A DNA stretch of 64,000 nt from an uncultured Holosporaceae bacterium (GCA_965661165.1 CBFICL010000001.1:5220-69219); one strand, 5' to 3'; shown: positions 37,465 to 43,662, counted from the first letter of the stretch. Numbers and translations: made by a program. Notes: a model not told the origin generated them from the sequence alone.

Positions 37465-38607
37465 TTAGGCCTGCGTATCCTTTTTCTTGCAAAACTCAGC
37501 AAGCCACAAGGAGGCATCTTTGGGGTTATCAAAGTCGTTGGCAATTTCGGGAAAGCTTTTGTTTTCCCAGCTGTGAATGCGTGTCAGCAAATGGGGCACG
37601 GGGCTTTGGGGATCATGCTCGCACAAATAAAGGGCCACCTTTTTTAATAACGCATACGCGTTTTGACGCGACGAGGGGTTGTCTGCCATGGGTTTGTCTT
37701 GGGGCGCTGTAGGTGTTGGTTCATGATCAGCGTTGTCTGGTTGTTCTTCTGGCGGAGCGTCCTCCTCGGGTGCTGGCGTTGTCAGCTTTTTGAGGGTGTT
37801 TAGCAACCCTTTGGGCTCTGCTGGGCGCGGCGTTATCACCTTGGCCATTTTTTTGAAATCAGGCAGGCAATCAATGATCTCTTTAATTCTTTTGGTGGCC
37901 TCGCTGAGCAGGGCCTCCTCAGCGCCGTTGGTTCGATCATAAAAAAATTGATCAAGTTGGTTGAGGGCATCAAGATTTTTAAACAATTCTTGCTCGAAGG
38001 TTTCATAAAAACTTTGCTTGGTATCTGCAATGCTTTGCTGTACATCGTGTTTAAGCGGGCGGCCCTCTTTTTCCAAAAACCTGTCTGGATTGCGTTGTTT
38101 TTGGCTGAGGGCGCTTAGGTGCTGGGCATCAATATAGTTGGCGAGCGTATAAGGCTCGATGCCTGCTGTGTCAGGCTGAGAAATCGGCAGCTCCAGCAAC
38201 GCATCACCCATGGTCTTGGAAAGCCATTCCAAAAGATAAGCCCGCTCAGCCGGGTCATCAACTTGTGGGTGAATGGCGTCCCAAAAATGTTCGAGTAGTT
38301 GGTGCGTAAGGTGTGTGCCTTGAAAAAGGCCCTCAAGGCCATAAAGAAAAAACCAAGCCTCTGTGAGCCACAAAGCGATTTGCAGATCTTTGGATTCTTG
38401 AGACAGAGCATGCATGCAGATGCGCTCGACACGATACCAATCAGCCTTCGGAGATTCCTCTTGCCAAGCCCCTTGGGGCAGCCCCGTTTTGTCTTCCTTG
38501 CGCAGCGTATTGATTTCATCATAAATGGCTGAGTATCGCAGGTTGTCACCACAAGGGTTTTTGGGGCTTATTTTTTTCAAAAGCGGTTGAAGATTTTTGA
38601 TCGTCAT
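37465..38607 (-). CDS. tssA: type VI secretion protein TssA (ImpA N-terminal domain)
   Basis: 380 aa. ISPKNPCGDNLRYSAIYDEI...W..VERICMHALSQESKDLQIALWLTEAWFFLYGLEGL matches the ImpA_N pattern. A Pro/Glu-rich linker and a short C-terminal domain follow. The start makes an ATGA overlap with the tssM stop. Confidence 0.8.
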   Translation of the reverse strand: MTIKNLQPLLKKISPKNPCGDNLRYSAIYDEINTLRKEDKTGLPQGAWQEESPKADWYRVERICMHALSQESKDLQIALWLTEAWFFLYGLEGLFQGTHLTHQLLEHFWDAIHPQVDDPAERAYLLEWLSKTMGDALLELPISQPDTAGIEPYTLANYIDAQHLSALSQKQRNPDRFLEKEGRPLKHDVQQSIADTKQSFYETFEQELFKNLDALNQLDQFFYDRTNGAEEALLSEATKRIKEIIDCLPDFKKMAKVITPRPAEPKGLLNTLKKLTTPAPEEDAPPEEQPDNADHEPTPTAPQDKPMADNPSSRQNAYALLKKVALYLCEHDPQSPVPHLLTRIHSWENKSFPEIANDFDNPKDASLWLAEFCKKKDTQA

Positions 38608-41600
38608 GGGCCTTCAGGATCCTTTGGAATAAGACAGGCCTTGGTTTTGTTTTCCTCCATACTGCCCTTTTCTTCTTGCGCTTCCAGCTGTGACAGGGTG
38701 GGGGCAATAAAGGGGAAGGATTTCGGAATCGCCAAAGACTTGCCACTGCTACCATCCACCAAGCCTATTTTCATGAACACAAGAAGCTCATTGGCTTCTG
38801 GCGGCGGCAGGGTGTCTTGACCACACAGCTTGGGATAGAGTTGATTTTTCAGGCCCGTGGGGATGGAAAAACGCACCATGACGCTTTGGTTGTCACCGTC
38901 GCCCACAACCTCTGCGTGCTGATACTGCAGCATTTTTAGCAAGGCCCAATCGCCACTGTAAGACAAGCTGGCCGTCAGTCCATCCACGCTGAGGCATGGC
39001 TGGAGAGAGGATGGCACAGGGCGATAGAGGCTGCCCAACGCCCATCTAAAGTCAACTTTGAGAGGTGAGCCCTGGCTCCACCATACTTTGGCTGTCTTGT
39101 TTTTGGCATAAACCGTTTTTTCACCGGCCAGCAGACTCCAATCGATCAGCTGATTGGCTTGCTTTTCTTGATCTTTCTGTGTGCGGAAAGTGACCTCTAA
39201 GGGCACAGAGGGCGCCTTATCTTCCCCAGATGTATCAATGCATAACCTGAAAAAAGTCCGCGTTTTTTCGATACTCTTAATAAAATTCAGCGCTTTGAGA
39301 TAGTGTGATTTTTTGCGCCCCTCGCGGGTGAGCAGCTCTTTGACGTAGGGGCCTTCCTTATCAAAAATGGAAAAGAAAATTTTCAGCTTCTCAAGGGAAG
39401 CATCTTCGTCTGTTTCAAAATTTTTCGGCGTAAAGGGATAGCGCCCCGCCAGATGTGTGTTGAAATAGCTGGTGATTTTTTTGTATGAAGCCAAAGATGC
39501 ATCGCGGTTGGCCAACGCACATTGGCGGGCAAAAGCGGCGCGGATGCTATTGATCCGGTCAAGAAAATAATCAATGCCGGAAGGATTTTTAGCCAGGTGG
39601 AGGGAAATGGGGCACCCCTCTAAGGTGAGAGAGGGCAATGTGGTGCTGATAAAGCTTTCCAACATCTGAAGGGTGTTGGCGGCATTGCGCTCATAGAATT
39701 GGAGTTGGGTGAGAATATCCGACCATTTCAGCATCAGGTGGGGAAGGGCTGACGAATCAGAGGTATAGATAATCTTTAATAATTCAACAGCTGGGCCAGC
39801 AAATTCTTTGGCAAGATAGCGCAAGCGTTCTCTTTGGTTGTTGAGATAGTTTTTCAGGTCTTGTTGGCTTGAAGCGCCAAAGGCCGCAAACACATGTCGT
39901 GGGTTGCCGCGCCACTGCGCCACAATATCTTGGCGGGGCTCATAGGGGGCCTCACTTTCATAAATGGCGTTAATTTTTTCCAAAATATGCAAGGCTTGAT
40001 CGTGCACAATGTCTTTTAAGCTGGTGTAAAGGTCAGTGAAGCCCGATTTTTTGAGTGTGCTCAACAAAGGCCCAATCACGGACACCAGGGTTTTGAGGTT
40101 GCGCACCTCTGTGAGATAGGTTTCCTCAGGGGCCAGCGTGGACATGTGTTGATCGATGGGTACAAATTCTTGGGCATCATAAATTTTGCCATAGACGGTG
40201 CGGCCCAGCGTGTGAAAGCACACCCGTTGCAAGACATCACAGGTTTTGGGGGGCAGGCTAGCGAGACGGTTTTTGAAAAAATCTTCAAATTTTTTAATAA
40301 GGTCAATGGCCTCTGACAAGGTGTGTGTATTCCACGTGAGGTAGCGGTCAAAGCTCTCTTTTTTAAGGGGTGGTGATTCGTGGGGGGGATACATAAACGG
40401 TTGGCTCAACAAAAGATTGAGCAAGCCTTGGAAATTGAGTAGGGCCGTGGAAATGTGGAAGGCCCCGTCTTGGTCAACGGTAAAAATCTTGCCCACCACG
40501 GGCGATCCTGTGGCCGCCAGCGTGCCCTTTAAACGTTCGAAGGAGATTTGACATTTTTCTTGGAATTTGCCGGCTGTCTCGGGCTCAAACAGTCTGAGCA
40601 GCGCAATTTTCTTTAACAGGGTTTCATAGGCAGGCCCTGGTACAAAGGTGCGTTGAGAAAGCCAGGCTGACTCAGGGGAAGAAAAGATGTTGATGCTGTT
40701 TGCCAAGGTTTTGGCCAACGTGCGCAAATCTTTGAGCCCATAGCTTTCATGGGAAGACCAGAACAAATTCAGGTGCTTGACAAGACGCGTGAGGTCGGGC
40801 AAGAGGTTCTCTGTTTTAAATCCATTGTCGAGAAAACGATTTCTATAAAACAAAAAGCGCTCAAAGGCGGGCTTGCCATAGGAAAAGAATTGAATTTGGT
40901 CAGATTCTTTGGTGTTAGACAAAAAGTGTGTATAAAACGAGTTTGACGCTTGCGCAAAAGAGGATGGCACCTGAAACCCAAACAGGTTTTTGACCAGAAA
41001 CCCAAAATCTTCAAAGCGTTTTGAATGGCGCAGGTTGTTATATTTTTCTGTCATGTTTTGATACAGATTCAAGGTCACCACATAGCGCTCCATTTCATGG
41101 AAAAATGGCGTATATAAGGGGTTGACACCTGAAACATTCTGAGGCGTTGCTTGTGCGTCGGGCACATTGCCTTTCACAATGTCACCCATGTTTTCATTGA
41201 GTTTTTGCACAATGGCCTTAAAAATCACCTGATAATAGGCCAACTCGACAACCCGCTGAATCTTGGTCTCCAAAGGTGAAAGCCACGAAAAAGGCAAAAA
41301 CCATGAGTAGAGGCGGTGGGTATACACATTGATGACGGCGGGTAAAAGGGCGCGCGCTTGCTTTTGAAAAAAAGCATGGTCCAGTTTTTCATCCCGTTCA
41401 CGGGTAATCGCTCGCTGGATGACACTTCCAATTTCGTCCACATAGGGCACAACCATGTGTTTGGTTTTGTCTAAGCGTCGATAAGCATGAAAAAGACCAA
41501 GCGAGCCTAAAATAAGGAATAAGATGGTGCCGCTTTGAATGATTTTAACAGAATAGTTTTTGGACAGCAGGCTATCTGTTAGAGGCGAGGCCAAGCCTTG

Positions 41601-42794: not shown

Positions 42795-42810
42795 AAAAGG
42801 GGACCTTGCT

Positions 42811-43662
42811 TCAACTTTCTAAGATGGAGGATACATCGTCTAAAATCATATCTACGGTGCGTCTTAGGTTGTTTGTGGTGTCATACCAAATGATATAAGA
42901 AATAAGGATATACAAGGCTACCATGCCCGCAAAAATCAGACGCCAGGTCTTCTTTTTTTGTTGAACCGCGTTTTCATGCAGAATGTCTGAGATGTTAAAC
43001 TGCAAGGTGTCAGGAAAAAGGGACACTTGCCCATCAGGCAGGGTAGGCCTTTCTTGATACAAATGAAAAAAAAGCTCTTCTTTATAGTGATTAATTTTGC
43101 CCTGGTCATCAAACCCGCGATAGCGACCCCGAAACCCCAGACCTAAAGCGCTGAGATACAAAAAGGCCAGATCTTTGCGTGAGGGTTCTTTGAGCTGGAG
43201 AAAGTGATCAATGTTTTCAAAAAATTTTTCACCCGCCACGTGGGTATGAAAAAGCCTTTCCTCCAAAAGATTGGCCTCCCAAAAAGAGCGGCCTTGCCAT
43301 GAGGGAAGCGAGAGAAAAATTTCATCTGCCAGGGCTGCCATGATGTATTGTGCTTCTTTATAAAGGGATTCCCCAAACTGGCCTTCGATGCGCTTGGCTT
43401 CAATAGATTGCTCTTCAAGAAAATAATAAAGCCGATCTAAGATGTCTTTGGCTTCGGGGTCTGGGCTGACATCCAAAAAGTGTTGCGTATTCGATCCCAC
43501 ATGTTTCAAAGACTTGGTTTTAGCCGAGAGAGCCGTGACCTTCATTTTCGCAATTTCAATATAGAATTGTTGAAAAAAAGTCACGAGATAAGAAAAATGC
43601 GCGTTGTGAGCCGTCATGTGAGAAGGGGCAGAAACATCGTTAGAAAATTTGGGCCTATGCAT
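42811..43662 (-). CDS. tssL: type VI secretion membrane subunit TssL (DotU/IcmH family)
   Basis: 283 aa. EAQYIMAALADEIFL...W....LLEERLFHTHVAGEKFFENI is the DotU cytoplasmic domain pattern. There is a single C-terminal TM (WRLIFAGMVALYILISYIIWY) and no OmpA-like extension. It lies 16 bp upstream of tssM. Confidence 0.8.
   Translation of the reverse strand: MHRPKFSNDVSAPSHMTAHNAHFSYLVTFFQQFYIEIAKMKVTALSAKTKSLKHVGSNTQHFLDVSPDPEAKDILDRLYYFLEEQSIEAKRIEGQFGESLYKEAQYIMAALADEIFLSLPSWQGRSFWEANLLEERLFHTHVAGEKFFENIDHFLQLKEPSRKDLAFLYLSALGLGFRGRYRGFDDQGKINHYKEELFFHLYQERPTLPDGQVSLFPDTLQFNISDILHENAVQQKKKTWRLIFAGMVALYILISYIIWYDTTNNLRRTVDMILDDVSSILES

What the first reader, a model, noticed from the sequence alone, without database searches (positions are those of the whole stretch)
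37465..43662. A tssL-tssM-tssA T6SS mini-operon embedded in core genes, with no other T6SS genes nearby
Three co-directional, tightly packed genes encode homologues of DotU/TssL, IcmF/TssM and ImpA_N/TssA. The tssL-tssM gap is 16 bp and tssM-tssA share an ATGA overlap. Canonical T6SS-i loci keep 13 or more core genes together (tssA-M, hcp, vgrG, clpV). Here the flanks are xerD on one side and dps/grpE/hrcA on the other. No sheath (tssB/C), tube (hcp), spike (vgrG/PAAR), baseplate (tssF/G/K), tssJ lipoprotein or clpV gene appears anywhere in the 64 kb. TssL also lacks a peptidoglycan-binding extension. Either the apparatus is scattered around the chromosome, which is unusual, or only a membrane-complex subset has been retained or repurposed. 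In what looks like a host-associated alphaproteobacterium, either outcome deserves follow-up.
Basis: partly seen in the sequence, partly recalled or inferred. Interest (0 to 1): 0.72.

Follow-up and report, generated by a model that had tools for sequence, protein, structure and literature searches.

The report
Piece of a scattered secretion system
These three genes are one block of a type VI secretion system whose genes are spread around the chromosome, an arrangement already published for this order of intracellular bacteria (Holosporales), so the finding is real but mostly already explained.

Summary
The three genes exist exactly as described: tssL 42811-43662, tssM 38604-42794 and tssA 37465-38607, all on the minus strand, with a 16-bp gap and an ATGA overlap. 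They score as DotU, IcmF-N and ImpA_N/TssA. The claim that no other T6SS gene lies in the 64 kb is wrong. A solitary tssE at 34042-34473 (+) passes NCBI's curated TssE model. No other core gene is in the window.

The window comes from a Candidatus Hepatobacter genome (Holosporaceae, shrimp pathogen); its TssM is 96% identical to that of 'bacterium NHP-B'. Published work already describes Holosporales T6SS genes dispersed over four or more loci, one of them [tssK-tssL-tssM-tssA]. A distant relative (L009) carries the same unusual ~1400-aa TssM inside a complete contiguous T6SS cluster, and other relatives show intermediate break-up.

All four window genes are under strong purifying selection (dN/dS 0.04-0.08), so they are not a decaying copy. 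The TssM C-terminal 60% has no Pfam hit. It aligns to canonical TssM by profile comparison and belongs to a large subfamily of more than 1000 clusters.

I could not search the rest of the genome for the sheath, baseplate and spike genes.

Verdict: known kind, low novelty.

The parts
42811..43662 (-). tssL (DotU-family inner-membrane anchor, 283 aa): cytoplasmic DotU domain, one C-terminal TM helix at aa 242-260, no peptidoglycan-binding extension
   Evidence: PF09850 E 4.9e-25. TIGR03349 82.2 bits, just under the cutoff of 89.95. PDB sequence hits to TssL of V. cholerae (4V3I) and EAEC (3U66). 32% identity to the TssL of the complete L009 cluster, E 2e-38. Hydropathy. dN/dS 0.067 against NHP-B.
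38604..42794 (-). tssM (1396 aa), long-form variant: N-terminal hydrophobic stretch aa 3-33, cytoplasmic NTPase-like domain with Walker A-like GSESAGKN at aa 100-107, TM helix at aa 416-434, and a ~960-aa periplasmic region that Pfam does not recognise
   Evidence: PF14331 E 3.5e-48 at aa 159-406. TIGR03348 covers only model positions 37-453 of 1168, 212 bits against a cutoff of 388. hhalign of the family against canonical TssM: N-terminal part E 3.4e-57; C-terminal slice Prob 93.7%, E 1.9e-7, over 541 columns, with shared LAGRYPF/GRYPF and GDWALL/GPWALF motifs. AF2 models pLDDT 83.9 and 83.7. Foldseek found no TssM match. 1141 related clusters in the exhaustive search. dN/dS 0.048.
37465..38607 (-). 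tssA (380 aa, short ImpA-type TssA), start codon overlapping the tssM stop (ATGA)
   Evidence: PF06812 E 1.3e-33. TIGR03363 230 bits, above the cutoff of 161. PDB 6HS5 TssA E 1.2e-22. dN/dS 0.079. Overlap read directly.
   Evidence: TIGR03357 59.7 bits, above the cutoff of 53.2. PF04965 27.2 bits, equal to the gathering score. 35% identity to the L009 TssE, E 7e-7. [quoted passage not shown] The same position is kept in L001 and L011. dN/dS 0.044.
43729..44727 (-). xerD-like tyrosine recombinase. This is context, not a T6SS part. It occupies the position upstream of tssL that tssK holds in more distant relatives. A 66-bp AT-rich spacer before tssL may hold the block's promoter (inferred).
   Evidence: PRK00283 319 bits, above the cutoff of 279; TIGR02225 XerD 302 bits, below the cutoff of 330. 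xerD-tssL-tssM-tssA is conserved in L001, L002/4/7/8, L010, L011 and L014/15. tssK holds this position in L005, L009, L012 and L013. Spacer read. No consensus promoter was called.

Best explanation
The trio is the membrane-complex and cap block (TssL inner-membrane anchor, TssM envelope-spanning channel subunit, TssA assembly chaperone/cap) of a T6SS-i. The genes of this system have been dispersed around the small (~1.1 Mb) chromosome of a Candidatus Hepatobacter species, an intracellular Holosporaceae pathogen of crustaceans.

Shown:
- The four genes' family identities.
- Their conservation and purifying selection.
- The conserved xerD-tssLMA ... tssE layout across the Hepatobacter clade.
- Descent of this TssM type from a contiguous 11-gene cluster in a relative, with intermediate stages of break-up.

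Inferred:
- The remaining core genes (tssB/C sheath, tssF/G/K baseplate, vgrG/PAAR spike, and a divergent Hcp and TssJ-like lipoprotein) lie at other loci, as published for sister lineages.
- The products assemble in trans into one contractile machine. TssL and TssM would form the envelope channel, TssE-F-G-K-VgrG would dock on it, and TssA would prime and cap sheath/tube polymerisation.
- The machine delivers effectors into the host cell.
For: Identity:
- Pfam and NCBIfam hits and PDB sequence hits for TssA and TssL.

Organism:
- TssM is 96% identical to 'bacterium NHP-B' EIL50_02550, and RefSeq Candidatus Hepatobacter penaei entries fall in the same 90% clusters.
- Two 49%-identity relatives are titled Holosporaceae bacterium MAGs.

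Origin from a full system:
- L009 has tssK-L-M-A-B-C-hcp-E-F-G-clpV contiguous, with a TssM of this variant.
- L013 has K-L-M-A-B, L005/6 K-L-M-A, and L012 K-L-M.
- The Hepatobacter clade has xerD-L-M-A.

Functionality:
- dN/dS is 0.044-0.079 at dS of about 0.35-0.46, equal to or lower than the flanking housekeeping genes at 0.027-0.173.
- Protein lengths are conserved across relatives down to about 23% identity.

Literature:
[quoted passage not shown] Its supplement lists a lone 432-bp tssE and a 4272-bp tssM.
- 10.1101/719211 reports tssABCEFGKLM, vgrG and PAAR kept even in ~600-kb Holosporaceae genomes.
- PMC11909080 reports a T6SS conserved in almost all Holosporineae except Holospora.
Against: - I could not search the rest of any Hepatobacter genome. 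The presence of tssB/C, tssF/G/K, vgrG and hcp in this genome is therefore inferred from sister lineages and general statements in reviews, not shown here.
- tssK, normally fused to this block, is absent from the window.
- TssM fails the curated NCBIfam cutoff, and its periplasmic region has no Pfam hit.
- Foldseek did not match confident models of that region to the solved TssM structures, although a canonical TssM sequence profile reaches those same PDB entries.
- No promoter or terminator evidence defines the transcription unit.
- No experimental data on T6SS function exist for any Holosporales (PMC11909080).
Confidence: 0.8

Rival explanations
1. Only a subset (TssL, TssM, TssA, TssE) survives in Hepatobacter. 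It has been repurposed as a non-contractile envelope complex, for example a secretion or envelope-organising channel, after the sheath, tube and spike were lost during genome reduction.
For: - tssK is unlinked from the block and absent from the window.
- The TssM periplasmic region is strongly diverged and did not match solved TssM folds.
- Holospora, in the same family, has lost the T6SS altogether (PMC11909080), so losses do occur.
- The rest of the genome was not examined.
Against: - TssE (baseplate wedge) and TssA (sheath/tube assembly) have no known role without a baseplate and sheath, yet both are under selection as strong as housekeeping genes.
- The divergent TssM periplasmic region is not specific to reduced genomes. 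It occurs in the complete L009 cluster and in more than 1000 clusters.
- Even 600-kb Holosporaceae relatives keep tssB/C/F/G/K and vgrG.
Confidence: 0.12
2. The three genes are a degenerate, non-functional paralogous remnant of a T6SS, while a complete conventional cluster elsewhere does the work.
For: TssM and TssL score below NCBIfam's curated equivalog cutoffs. The trio has slightly lower G+C than its flanks.
Against: - The reading frames are intact and the same length in relatives from 96% down to about 23% identity.
- dN/dS is 0.05-0.08.
- The low scores are a property of the whole long-TssM subfamily, including the one in the complete L009 cluster.
- A ~1.1-Mb reduced genome is unlikely to carry two T6SSs (inference).
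Confidence: 0.03
3. The DotU and IcmF homologues belong to a type IVB (Dot/Icm) secretion system, in which IcmH/DotU and IcmF are accessory stabilisers, and not to a T6SS.
For: DotU and IcmF families are shared between T4BSS and T6SS. There are weak NCBIfam hits to IcmH_DotU_IVB (29.6 bits) and IcmF_IVB (43.5 bits).
Against: - Both hits are far below their cutoffs of 50 and 1000 bits.
- The pair is translationally coupled to a bona fide TssA, and a TssE lies nearby.
- Homologues sit inside a full T6SS cluster.
- No Dot/Icm gene was found in the window.
Confidence: 0.01

Closest known systems
Dispersed T6SS of Holosporales endosymbionts (Ca. Bodocaedibacter vickermanii, Paracaedibacteraceae, Caedimonadaceae; PMC8163844)
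   Same: - Core genes lie at four or more loci among housekeeping genes.
- One conserved block contains tssL-tssM-tssA.
- tssE is a lone 432-bp gene, the same 143 aa as here.
- tssM is about 4.2 kb.
   Different: - In those genomes the block begins with a tssJ-like lipoprotein gene and tssK.
- In the Hepatobacter clade xerD occupies that position, and tssK and the lipoprotein gene are not in the window.
- Here tssE lies only 3 kb from the block.
'Modified' T6SS of reduced Holosporaceae (Cytomitobacter, Ignotibacter/Nesciobacter; George et al., 10.1101/719211)
   Same: - Same family as Hepatobacter.
- The T6SS is retained despite extreme genome reduction.
- Hcp and TssJ are not detected by standard annotation.
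   Different: - Gene lists are published for those species (tssABCEFGKLM, vgrG, PAAR).
- For Hepatobacter I could only show tssA, E, L and M.
Canonical T6SS-i TssJLM membrane complex (EAEC Sci-1; PDB 6HS7, 6IXH, 4Y7M)
   Same: - TssL is a C-tail-anchored DotU protein.
- TssM has a cytoplasmic domain between TM segments and a large periplasmic helical region, followed by a C-terminal beta-domain and a terminal helix.
- The GRYPF and GPWAL motifs are shared.
   Different: - TssM is about 200-270 residues longer.
- PF06761 and PF06744 are not detected.
- Foldseek gave no match to the solved structures.
- No recognisable TssJ; in relatives a Pfam-less lipoprotein is encoded at the tssJ position.
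- The genes are not clustered.
Acinetobacter T6SS with a non-canonical, TssJ-less membrane complex (PMC10564176)
   Same: It is a functional T6SS without a detectable TssJ, with lineage-specific changes at the TssM C-terminus. That paper also reports that 27.5% of other tssM+tssB genomes lack a detectable TssJ.
   Different: Acinetobacter uses TsmK, TslA, TagX and a GS-linker in TssM. None of these was seen here, and the Acinetobacter genes are clustered.
Scattered rvh type IV secretion genes of Rickettsiales (my own knowledge, not checked here)
   Same: It is a multi-protein secretion machine encoded at several loci in a reduced genome of an obligate intracellular alphaproteobacterium.
   Different: It is a different secretion system and a different order. 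It is an analogy for operon break-up, not homology.

Membership tests
TssL / DotU (T6SS inner-membrane anchor) | DotU domain above the family threshold | tested here: met
   PF09850 88.8 bits against a gathering score of 27. The NCBIfam TIGR03349 subfamily-domain model gives 82.2 bits, slightly below its cutoff of 89.95. PDB TssL hits 4V3I and 3U66.
TssL / DotU (T6SS inner-membrane anchor) | Single C-terminal transmembrane anchor after the cytoplasmic domain | tested here: met
   One hydrophobic segment at aa 242-260 of 283 (Kyte-Doolittle only, no dedicated TM predictor).
TssM / IcmF (T6SS) | IcmF-related N-terminal (NTPase-like) cytoplasmic domain | tested here: met
   PF14331 164.6 bits. 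hhalign against canonical TssM E 3.4e-57. The Walker A G-x4-GK is kept (GSESAGKN), with N in place of S/T.
TssM / IcmF (T6SS) | Periplasmic IcmF-related (PF06761) and C-terminal (PF06744) domains | tested here: inconclusive
   No Pfam hit. TIGR03348 212 bits, below the cutoff of 388. Profile-profile alignment of the C-terminal 60% to canonical TssM gives Prob 93.7%, E 1.9e-7, to the last residues, with shared GRYPF and GxWAL motifs. Foldseek with confident models found no solved TssM, although a canonical sequence profile finds 6IXH, 6HS7, 4Y7M and 4Y7L.
TssM / IcmF (T6SS) | Three TM helices (an N-terminal hairpin plus one before the periplasmic region) | tested here: inconclusive
   Hydropathy shows one 31-residue hydrophobic stretch (aa 3-33, one or two helices) and one segment at aa 416-434.
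TssA (ImpA family) | ImpA_N domain and a full-length match to a curated TssA model | tested here: met
   PF06812 116 bits. TIGR03363 230.2 bits, above the cutoff of 160.85, over aa 5-356. PDB 6HS5 TssA E 1.2e-22.
TssE (gp25-like baseplate subunit) | Match to the curated TssE equivalog model | tested here: met
   TIGR03357 59.7 bits, above the cutoff of 53.2. PF04965 27.2 bits, equal to the gathering score of 27.2. No PDB sequence hit.
Complete T6SS-i (13 core components TssA-M plus PAAR) | Sheath (TssB/C), tube (Hcp), spike (VgrG), baseplate (TssF/G/K) and ClpV encoded in the same genome | not testable with these tools
   Only the 64-kb window and +/-10-kb loci could be read, and none of these genes is in the window. 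The genome-collection scan did not return the Hepatobacter genome. Presence is inferred from sister lineages and a review statement.
Complete T6SS-i (13 core components TssA-M plus PAAR) | Outer-membrane lipoprotein TssJ | tested here: not met
   No TssJ/SciN hit and no homologue of the L009/L013 tssJ-position lipoprotein in the window. The literature reports TssJ as undetected in Holosporaceae.
Dispersed Holosporales-type T6SS (PMC8163844) | tssL-tssM-tssA contiguous and embedded among housekeeping genes, other core genes elsewhere, in a Holosporales genome | tested here: met
   for the layout. for the taxonomic placement.
Dispersed Holosporales-type T6SS (PMC8163844) | tssK immediately upstream of tssL | tested here: not met
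   xerD is upstream of tssL in the window and in all Hepatobacter-clade loci. tssK is present there in L005, L009, L012 and L013.
Type IVB (Dot/Icm) IcmF-IcmH/DotU pair | Match to the IVB-specific IcmF and IcmH models | tested here: not met
   NF038226 43.5 bits against a cutoff of 1000. NF038228 29.6 bits against a cutoff of 50.

The most novel reading that the evidence does not exclude
The ~1400-aa 'long TssM' carried here belongs to a large, structurally uncharacterised T6SS-i subfamily: 1141 clusters at 50% identity, invisible to Pfam's periplasmic TssM models and unmatched by Foldseek to the solved EAEC TssJLM structures. In this reading its periplasmic region, together with a Pfam-less lipoprotein encoded upstream of tssK in relatives, builds an envelope complex of different architecture from the canonical TssJLM. 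In the Hepatobacter clade this complex would operate with tssK unlinked and perhaps without any TssJ or Hcp of recognisable type, making it a minimal host-directed T6SS variant.
Probability: 0.25. Interest if true: 0.5.

Novelty: already known. Interest (0 to 1): 0.22.

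Why it matters
Candidatus Hepatobacter penaei causes necrotising hepatopancreatitis in farmed shrimp, and its T6SS is the leading candidate for delivering host-manipulating effectors (PMC11909080). No Holosporales T6SS has been studied experimentally.

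The locus confirms that this pathogen keeps the membrane-complex genes under strong selection. The new points are minor:
- tssK has been replaced by xerD at the block's 5' end throughout the Hepatobacter clade.
- A series of metagenomic relatives documents stepwise break-up of an 11-gene cluster.
- Annotation pipelines under-call a large long-TssM subfamily. RefSeq names this protein only 'IcmF/TssM N-terminal domain-containing protein'.

None of this overturns current understanding.

Tried and rejected
1. Exact-sequence look-ups of the window's TssM and TssE found nothing. The window's own genome is not in the gene index.
2. The single genome-contig scan returned only two 49%-identity Holosporaceae MAGs, not a Hepatobacter genome. 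The rest of the genome could therefore not be searched for tssB/C/F/G/K or vgrG.
3. I considered spending the last protein search on TssC or TssK from L009 or L005. I rejected it because only the best 120 hits are listed. The word-index search had recovered just 10 of more than 1000 long-TssM relatives, so a fast-evolving Hepatobacter homologue would not surface among thousands of canonical ones.
4. Paper supplements were either cut before the Hepatobacter rows (PMC11724238) or did not cover Hepatobacter.
5. A PDB sequence search with the long-TssM profile found nothing.
6. Foldseek returned only noise for the 957-aa periplasmic model (helical-repeat proteins) and for the 277-aa C-terminal domain model (weak C2-like beta-sandwich hits, E >= 5e-3).
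7. The promoter/terminator scan was uninformative. Promoter-like sites were no more frequent than in shuffles, and none sat upstream of tssL on the minus strand.
8. The window's unannotated ORFs were checked as possible divergent Hcp, TssJ or TssK. None matched by Pfam, NCBIfam, tblastn or inspection.
9. The T4BSS reading was rejected on NCBIfam scores and gene context.

Full report
OBSERVATION

The minus strand carries three tightly packed ORFs at exactly the stated coordinates: 42811-43662 (283 aa), 38604-42794 (1396 aa) and 37465-38607 (380 aa). The 16-bp spacer and the ATGA stop/start overlap read directly from the sequence.

Pfam assigns DotU (E 4.9e-25), IcmF-related_N (E 3.5e-48) and ImpA_N (E 1.3e-33). 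NCBIfam places the third protein above the curated TssA cutoff (TIGR03363, 230 against 161 bits). TssL and TssM fall below their curated cutoffs.

The flanks are a XerD-like recombinase on one side and dps, grpE and hrcA on the other. TssL ends 23 residues after its single TM helix, so it has no peptidoglycan-binding domain.

A 143-aa ORF at 34042-34473 (+) is TssE. It scores 59.7 bits on the curated equivalog TIGR03357 (cutoff 53.2). It scores exactly the Pfam gathering score on GPW_gp25. It is 35% identical to the TssE of a complete cluster. It lies about 3 kb from tssA, on the other strand, behind rsmD, hrcA, grpE and dps.

So a baseplate gene is in the window. The rest of the absence claim holds. 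Pfam/NCBIfam scans of the window's ORFs and the precomputed Pfam annotation of the syntenic NHP-B contig for the central ~24 kb show no other core gene. tblastn with subtype-matched TssK, TssB, TssC, Hcp, TssF, TssG and ClpV queries also found none.

ORGANISM

- The TssM is 96% identical to a hypothetical protein of 'bacterium NHP-B'.
- Its 90% cluster also contains RefSeq WP_031933832.1 of Candidatus Hepatobacter penaei, named only 'IcmF/TssM N-terminal domain-containing protein'.
- The TssE cluster holds WP_031933825.1, named TssE.
- The only named genome-collection relatives, at 49% identity, are Holosporaceae bacterium MAGs, one from the coral Oculina patagonica.
- The published H. penaei genome is 1.1 Mb at 50% G+C (PMC11909080), which fits the window's composition.

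WHAT IS KNOWN

[quoted passage not shown] Its supplement lists a lone 432-bp tssE and a 4272-bp tssM, the same sizes as here.
- George et al. (10.1101/719211) report tssABCEFGKLM, vgrG and PAAR even in ~600-kb Holosporaceae genomes, with Hcp and TssJ undetected.
- The 2025 review (PMC11909080) calls the T6SS conserved in almost all Holosporineae genomes except Holospora, and 'probably non-standard'.

The finding is therefore an instance of a published pattern.

EVOLUTIONARY SERIES FOUND HERE

Contexts of TssM relatives give a stepwise picture.

| Locus | TssM identity to window | Arrangement |
|---|---|---|
| L009 | 25% | tssK-L-M-A-B-C-hcp-E-F-G-clpV, contiguous |
| L013 | 26% | K-L-M-A-B, cut at the contig end |
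| L005/L006 | 24% | K-L-M-A among housekeeping genes |
| L012 | 23% | K-L-M, followed by pepA |
| Hepatobacter clade | see below | xerD-L-M-A |

- The Hepatobacter clade here comprises the window, L001, L010, L011, L002-4/7/8 and L014/15.
- Over full-length TssM, identity is 96% for L001, 63% for L010 and L011, and 49% for L002-4/7/8.
- For L014/15 it is 37%, measured over aa 440-1396 only.

L011 also keeps dsbD-tssE-rsmD-hrcA-grpE-dps-tssA. So the layout is old and stable within the clade, and tssK has been unlinked from the block.

FUNCTIONAL STATE

Nei-Gojobori dN/dS between the window and NHP-B is 0.067 (tssL), 0.048 (tssM), 0.079 (tssA) and 0.044 (tssE), at dS of 0.34-0.46. Eleven neighbouring genes range from 0.027 to 0.173. 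This rules out a decaying paralogue and argues for a working role.

TssE and TssA are only known to act in baseplate and sheath/tube assembly (established T6SS biology). Their retention therefore argues for a contractile apparatus and against a stand-alone membrane complex.

THE ODD TssM

- Only the first ~440 residues match TssM models.
- The word-index protein search found just ten full-length relatives.
- The exhaustive search with aa 440-1396 found 1141 clusters at E <= 1e-3 and 529 at E <= 1e-30, nearly all proteins of 1350-1450 aa. This is a large long-TssM subfamily, not a Hepatobacter oddity.
- Profile-profile comparison aligns the C-terminal 60% to the canonical periplasmic region right to the end (Prob 93.7%, E 1.9e-7), sharing the LAGRYPF/GRYPF and GDWALL/GPWALF motifs.
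- AF2 models are confident (pLDDT 83.9 and 83.7). They show a long helical region, a beta-domain and a terminal helix.
- Foldseek found no solved TssM and nothing below E 1e-3. A canonical TssM sequence profile does reach 6IXH, 6HS7, 4Y7M and 4Y7L.

I read this as a full-length, strongly diverged TssM. Close structural similarity of the periplasmic part to the EAEC complex is not confirmed.

TssJ QUESTION

In L013 a 180-aa protein with a clear lipobox (…LFVTGC) is homologous (E 4e-9) to the ORF just upstream of tssK in L009. Neither has a Pfam hit. This matches the 'tssJ-like' lipoprotein gene upstream of tssK reported for Bodocaedibacter. The 'missing TssJ' of this subtype may therefore be an annotation gap. 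No homologue lies in the window.

For comparison, Acinetobacter runs a functional T6SS without TssJ, and 27.5% of other tssM+tssB genomes lack a detectable one (PMC10564176).

MECHANISM (most likely)

- TssL and TssM form the inner-membrane-anchored, envelope-spanning channel.
- TssA, translationally coupled to TssM, primes baseplate docking and caps the growing sheath and tube.
- TssE joins TssF, TssG, TssK and VgrG, encoded elsewhere, in the baseplate.
- Sheath contraction fires the spike and effectors into the host cytoplasm or a vacuole membrane.

The gene identities, conservation and descent are shown. The location and presence of the remaining genes, assembly in trans and the target are inferred.

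LIMITS

I could not read the rest of any Hepatobacter genome. The completeness of its T6SS therefore rests on literature about sister lineages. The transcription unit is undefined.

VERDICT

The 'scattered apparatus' alternative is supported, and the phenomenon is already published for this order. Interest is low. The residual novelty lies in the uncharacterised long-TssM subfamily and the clade-specific loss of tssK linkage.

Noticed in passing
window 44904-46253 (+): A lone large-terminase gene (Terminase_6N + 6C, 449 aa) sits next to xerD with no other phage genes nearby. It is intact and under purifying selection (dN/dS 0.083 against NHP-B), but is split into two ORFs in the 63% relative L010. 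Singlet GTA-type terminases in Holosporaceae are already reported (PMC9254644).
   Followed up: partly
window 10879-12426 (-): A 515-aa protein in a low-G+C region (43% G+C). It has an N-terminal hydrophobic segment, long low-complexity and coiled-coil stretches, and a duplicated motif STPTSENPDYDVPA / NTPTSENADYDVPK. There is no Pfam hit. From memory, the motif resembles the tyrosine-phosphorylation repeats of injected bacterial effectors. It is a candidate secreted effector, untested.
   Followed up: no
window 20351-21286 (+) and 21454-22506 (+): Two adjacent paralogous ORFs (311 and 350 aa) with no family hits. Each has a TM segment, and they share a C-terminal region around 'CG.PVCP..EDF.R'. 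They could be surface or secreted proteins.
   Followed up: no
window 9889-10710 (-), 52326-53012 (-), 54308-55222 (+): Three more unannotated proteins with signal-peptide-like N-termini:
- a 273-aa protein that also has a C-terminal TM segment;
- a 228-aa coiled-coil protein;
- a 304-aa protein ending ...RLGYHF, typical of outer-membrane beta-barrels.
   Followed up: no
L013 4501-5043 (-) and L009 about 4750-5281 (+): A small lipoprotein (lipobox VTGC in L013) is encoded just upstream of tssK in long-TssM T6SS clusters. The two copies are homologous (E 4e-9) and have no Pfam family. It is probably the TssJ counterpart that annotation reports as missing in this T6SS subtype.
   Followed up: partly
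window 38604-41477 (-) (TssM aa 440-1396) and proteins P0129-P0277: The periplasmic region unrecognised by Pfam defines a large family: 1141 clusters at 50% identity, mostly proteins of 1350-1450 aa. A few are much longer (2028-2558 aa) and match in three to five stretches, which suggests fusions or duplications. Public annotation under-calls these as TssM.
   Followed up: partly
L002 17907-24251 (49% relative, downstream of tssA): In the marine Holosporaceae MAG clade, tssA is followed by bioY, a PfkB-like kinase, four ORFs with no family hits (388, 365, 447 and 119 aa), a Lipase_3 protein and a leucine-rich-repeat protein. George et al. noted LRR proteins next to T6SS genes in Holosporaceae, so these are possible effectors.
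   Followed up: no
window 26003-27394 (+): A 463-aa ORF downstream of pnp has only a weak partial NCBIfam hit to FabK enoyl-ACP reductase (28.7 bits, cutoff 453). Its identity is unresolved.
   Followed up: no
window 34042-34473 (+) against protein clusters: The window's TssE is 100% identical to a protein from an unnamed NCBI assembly with a 114,564-bp contig. That assembly is distinct from both H. penaei RefSeq (334-kb contig) and NHP-B (81-kb contig). The window's TssM is only 96% identical to NHP-B's, at dS of about 0.35. So 'Hepatobacter penaei'-type isolates may include more than one well-separated lineage.
   Followed up: partly
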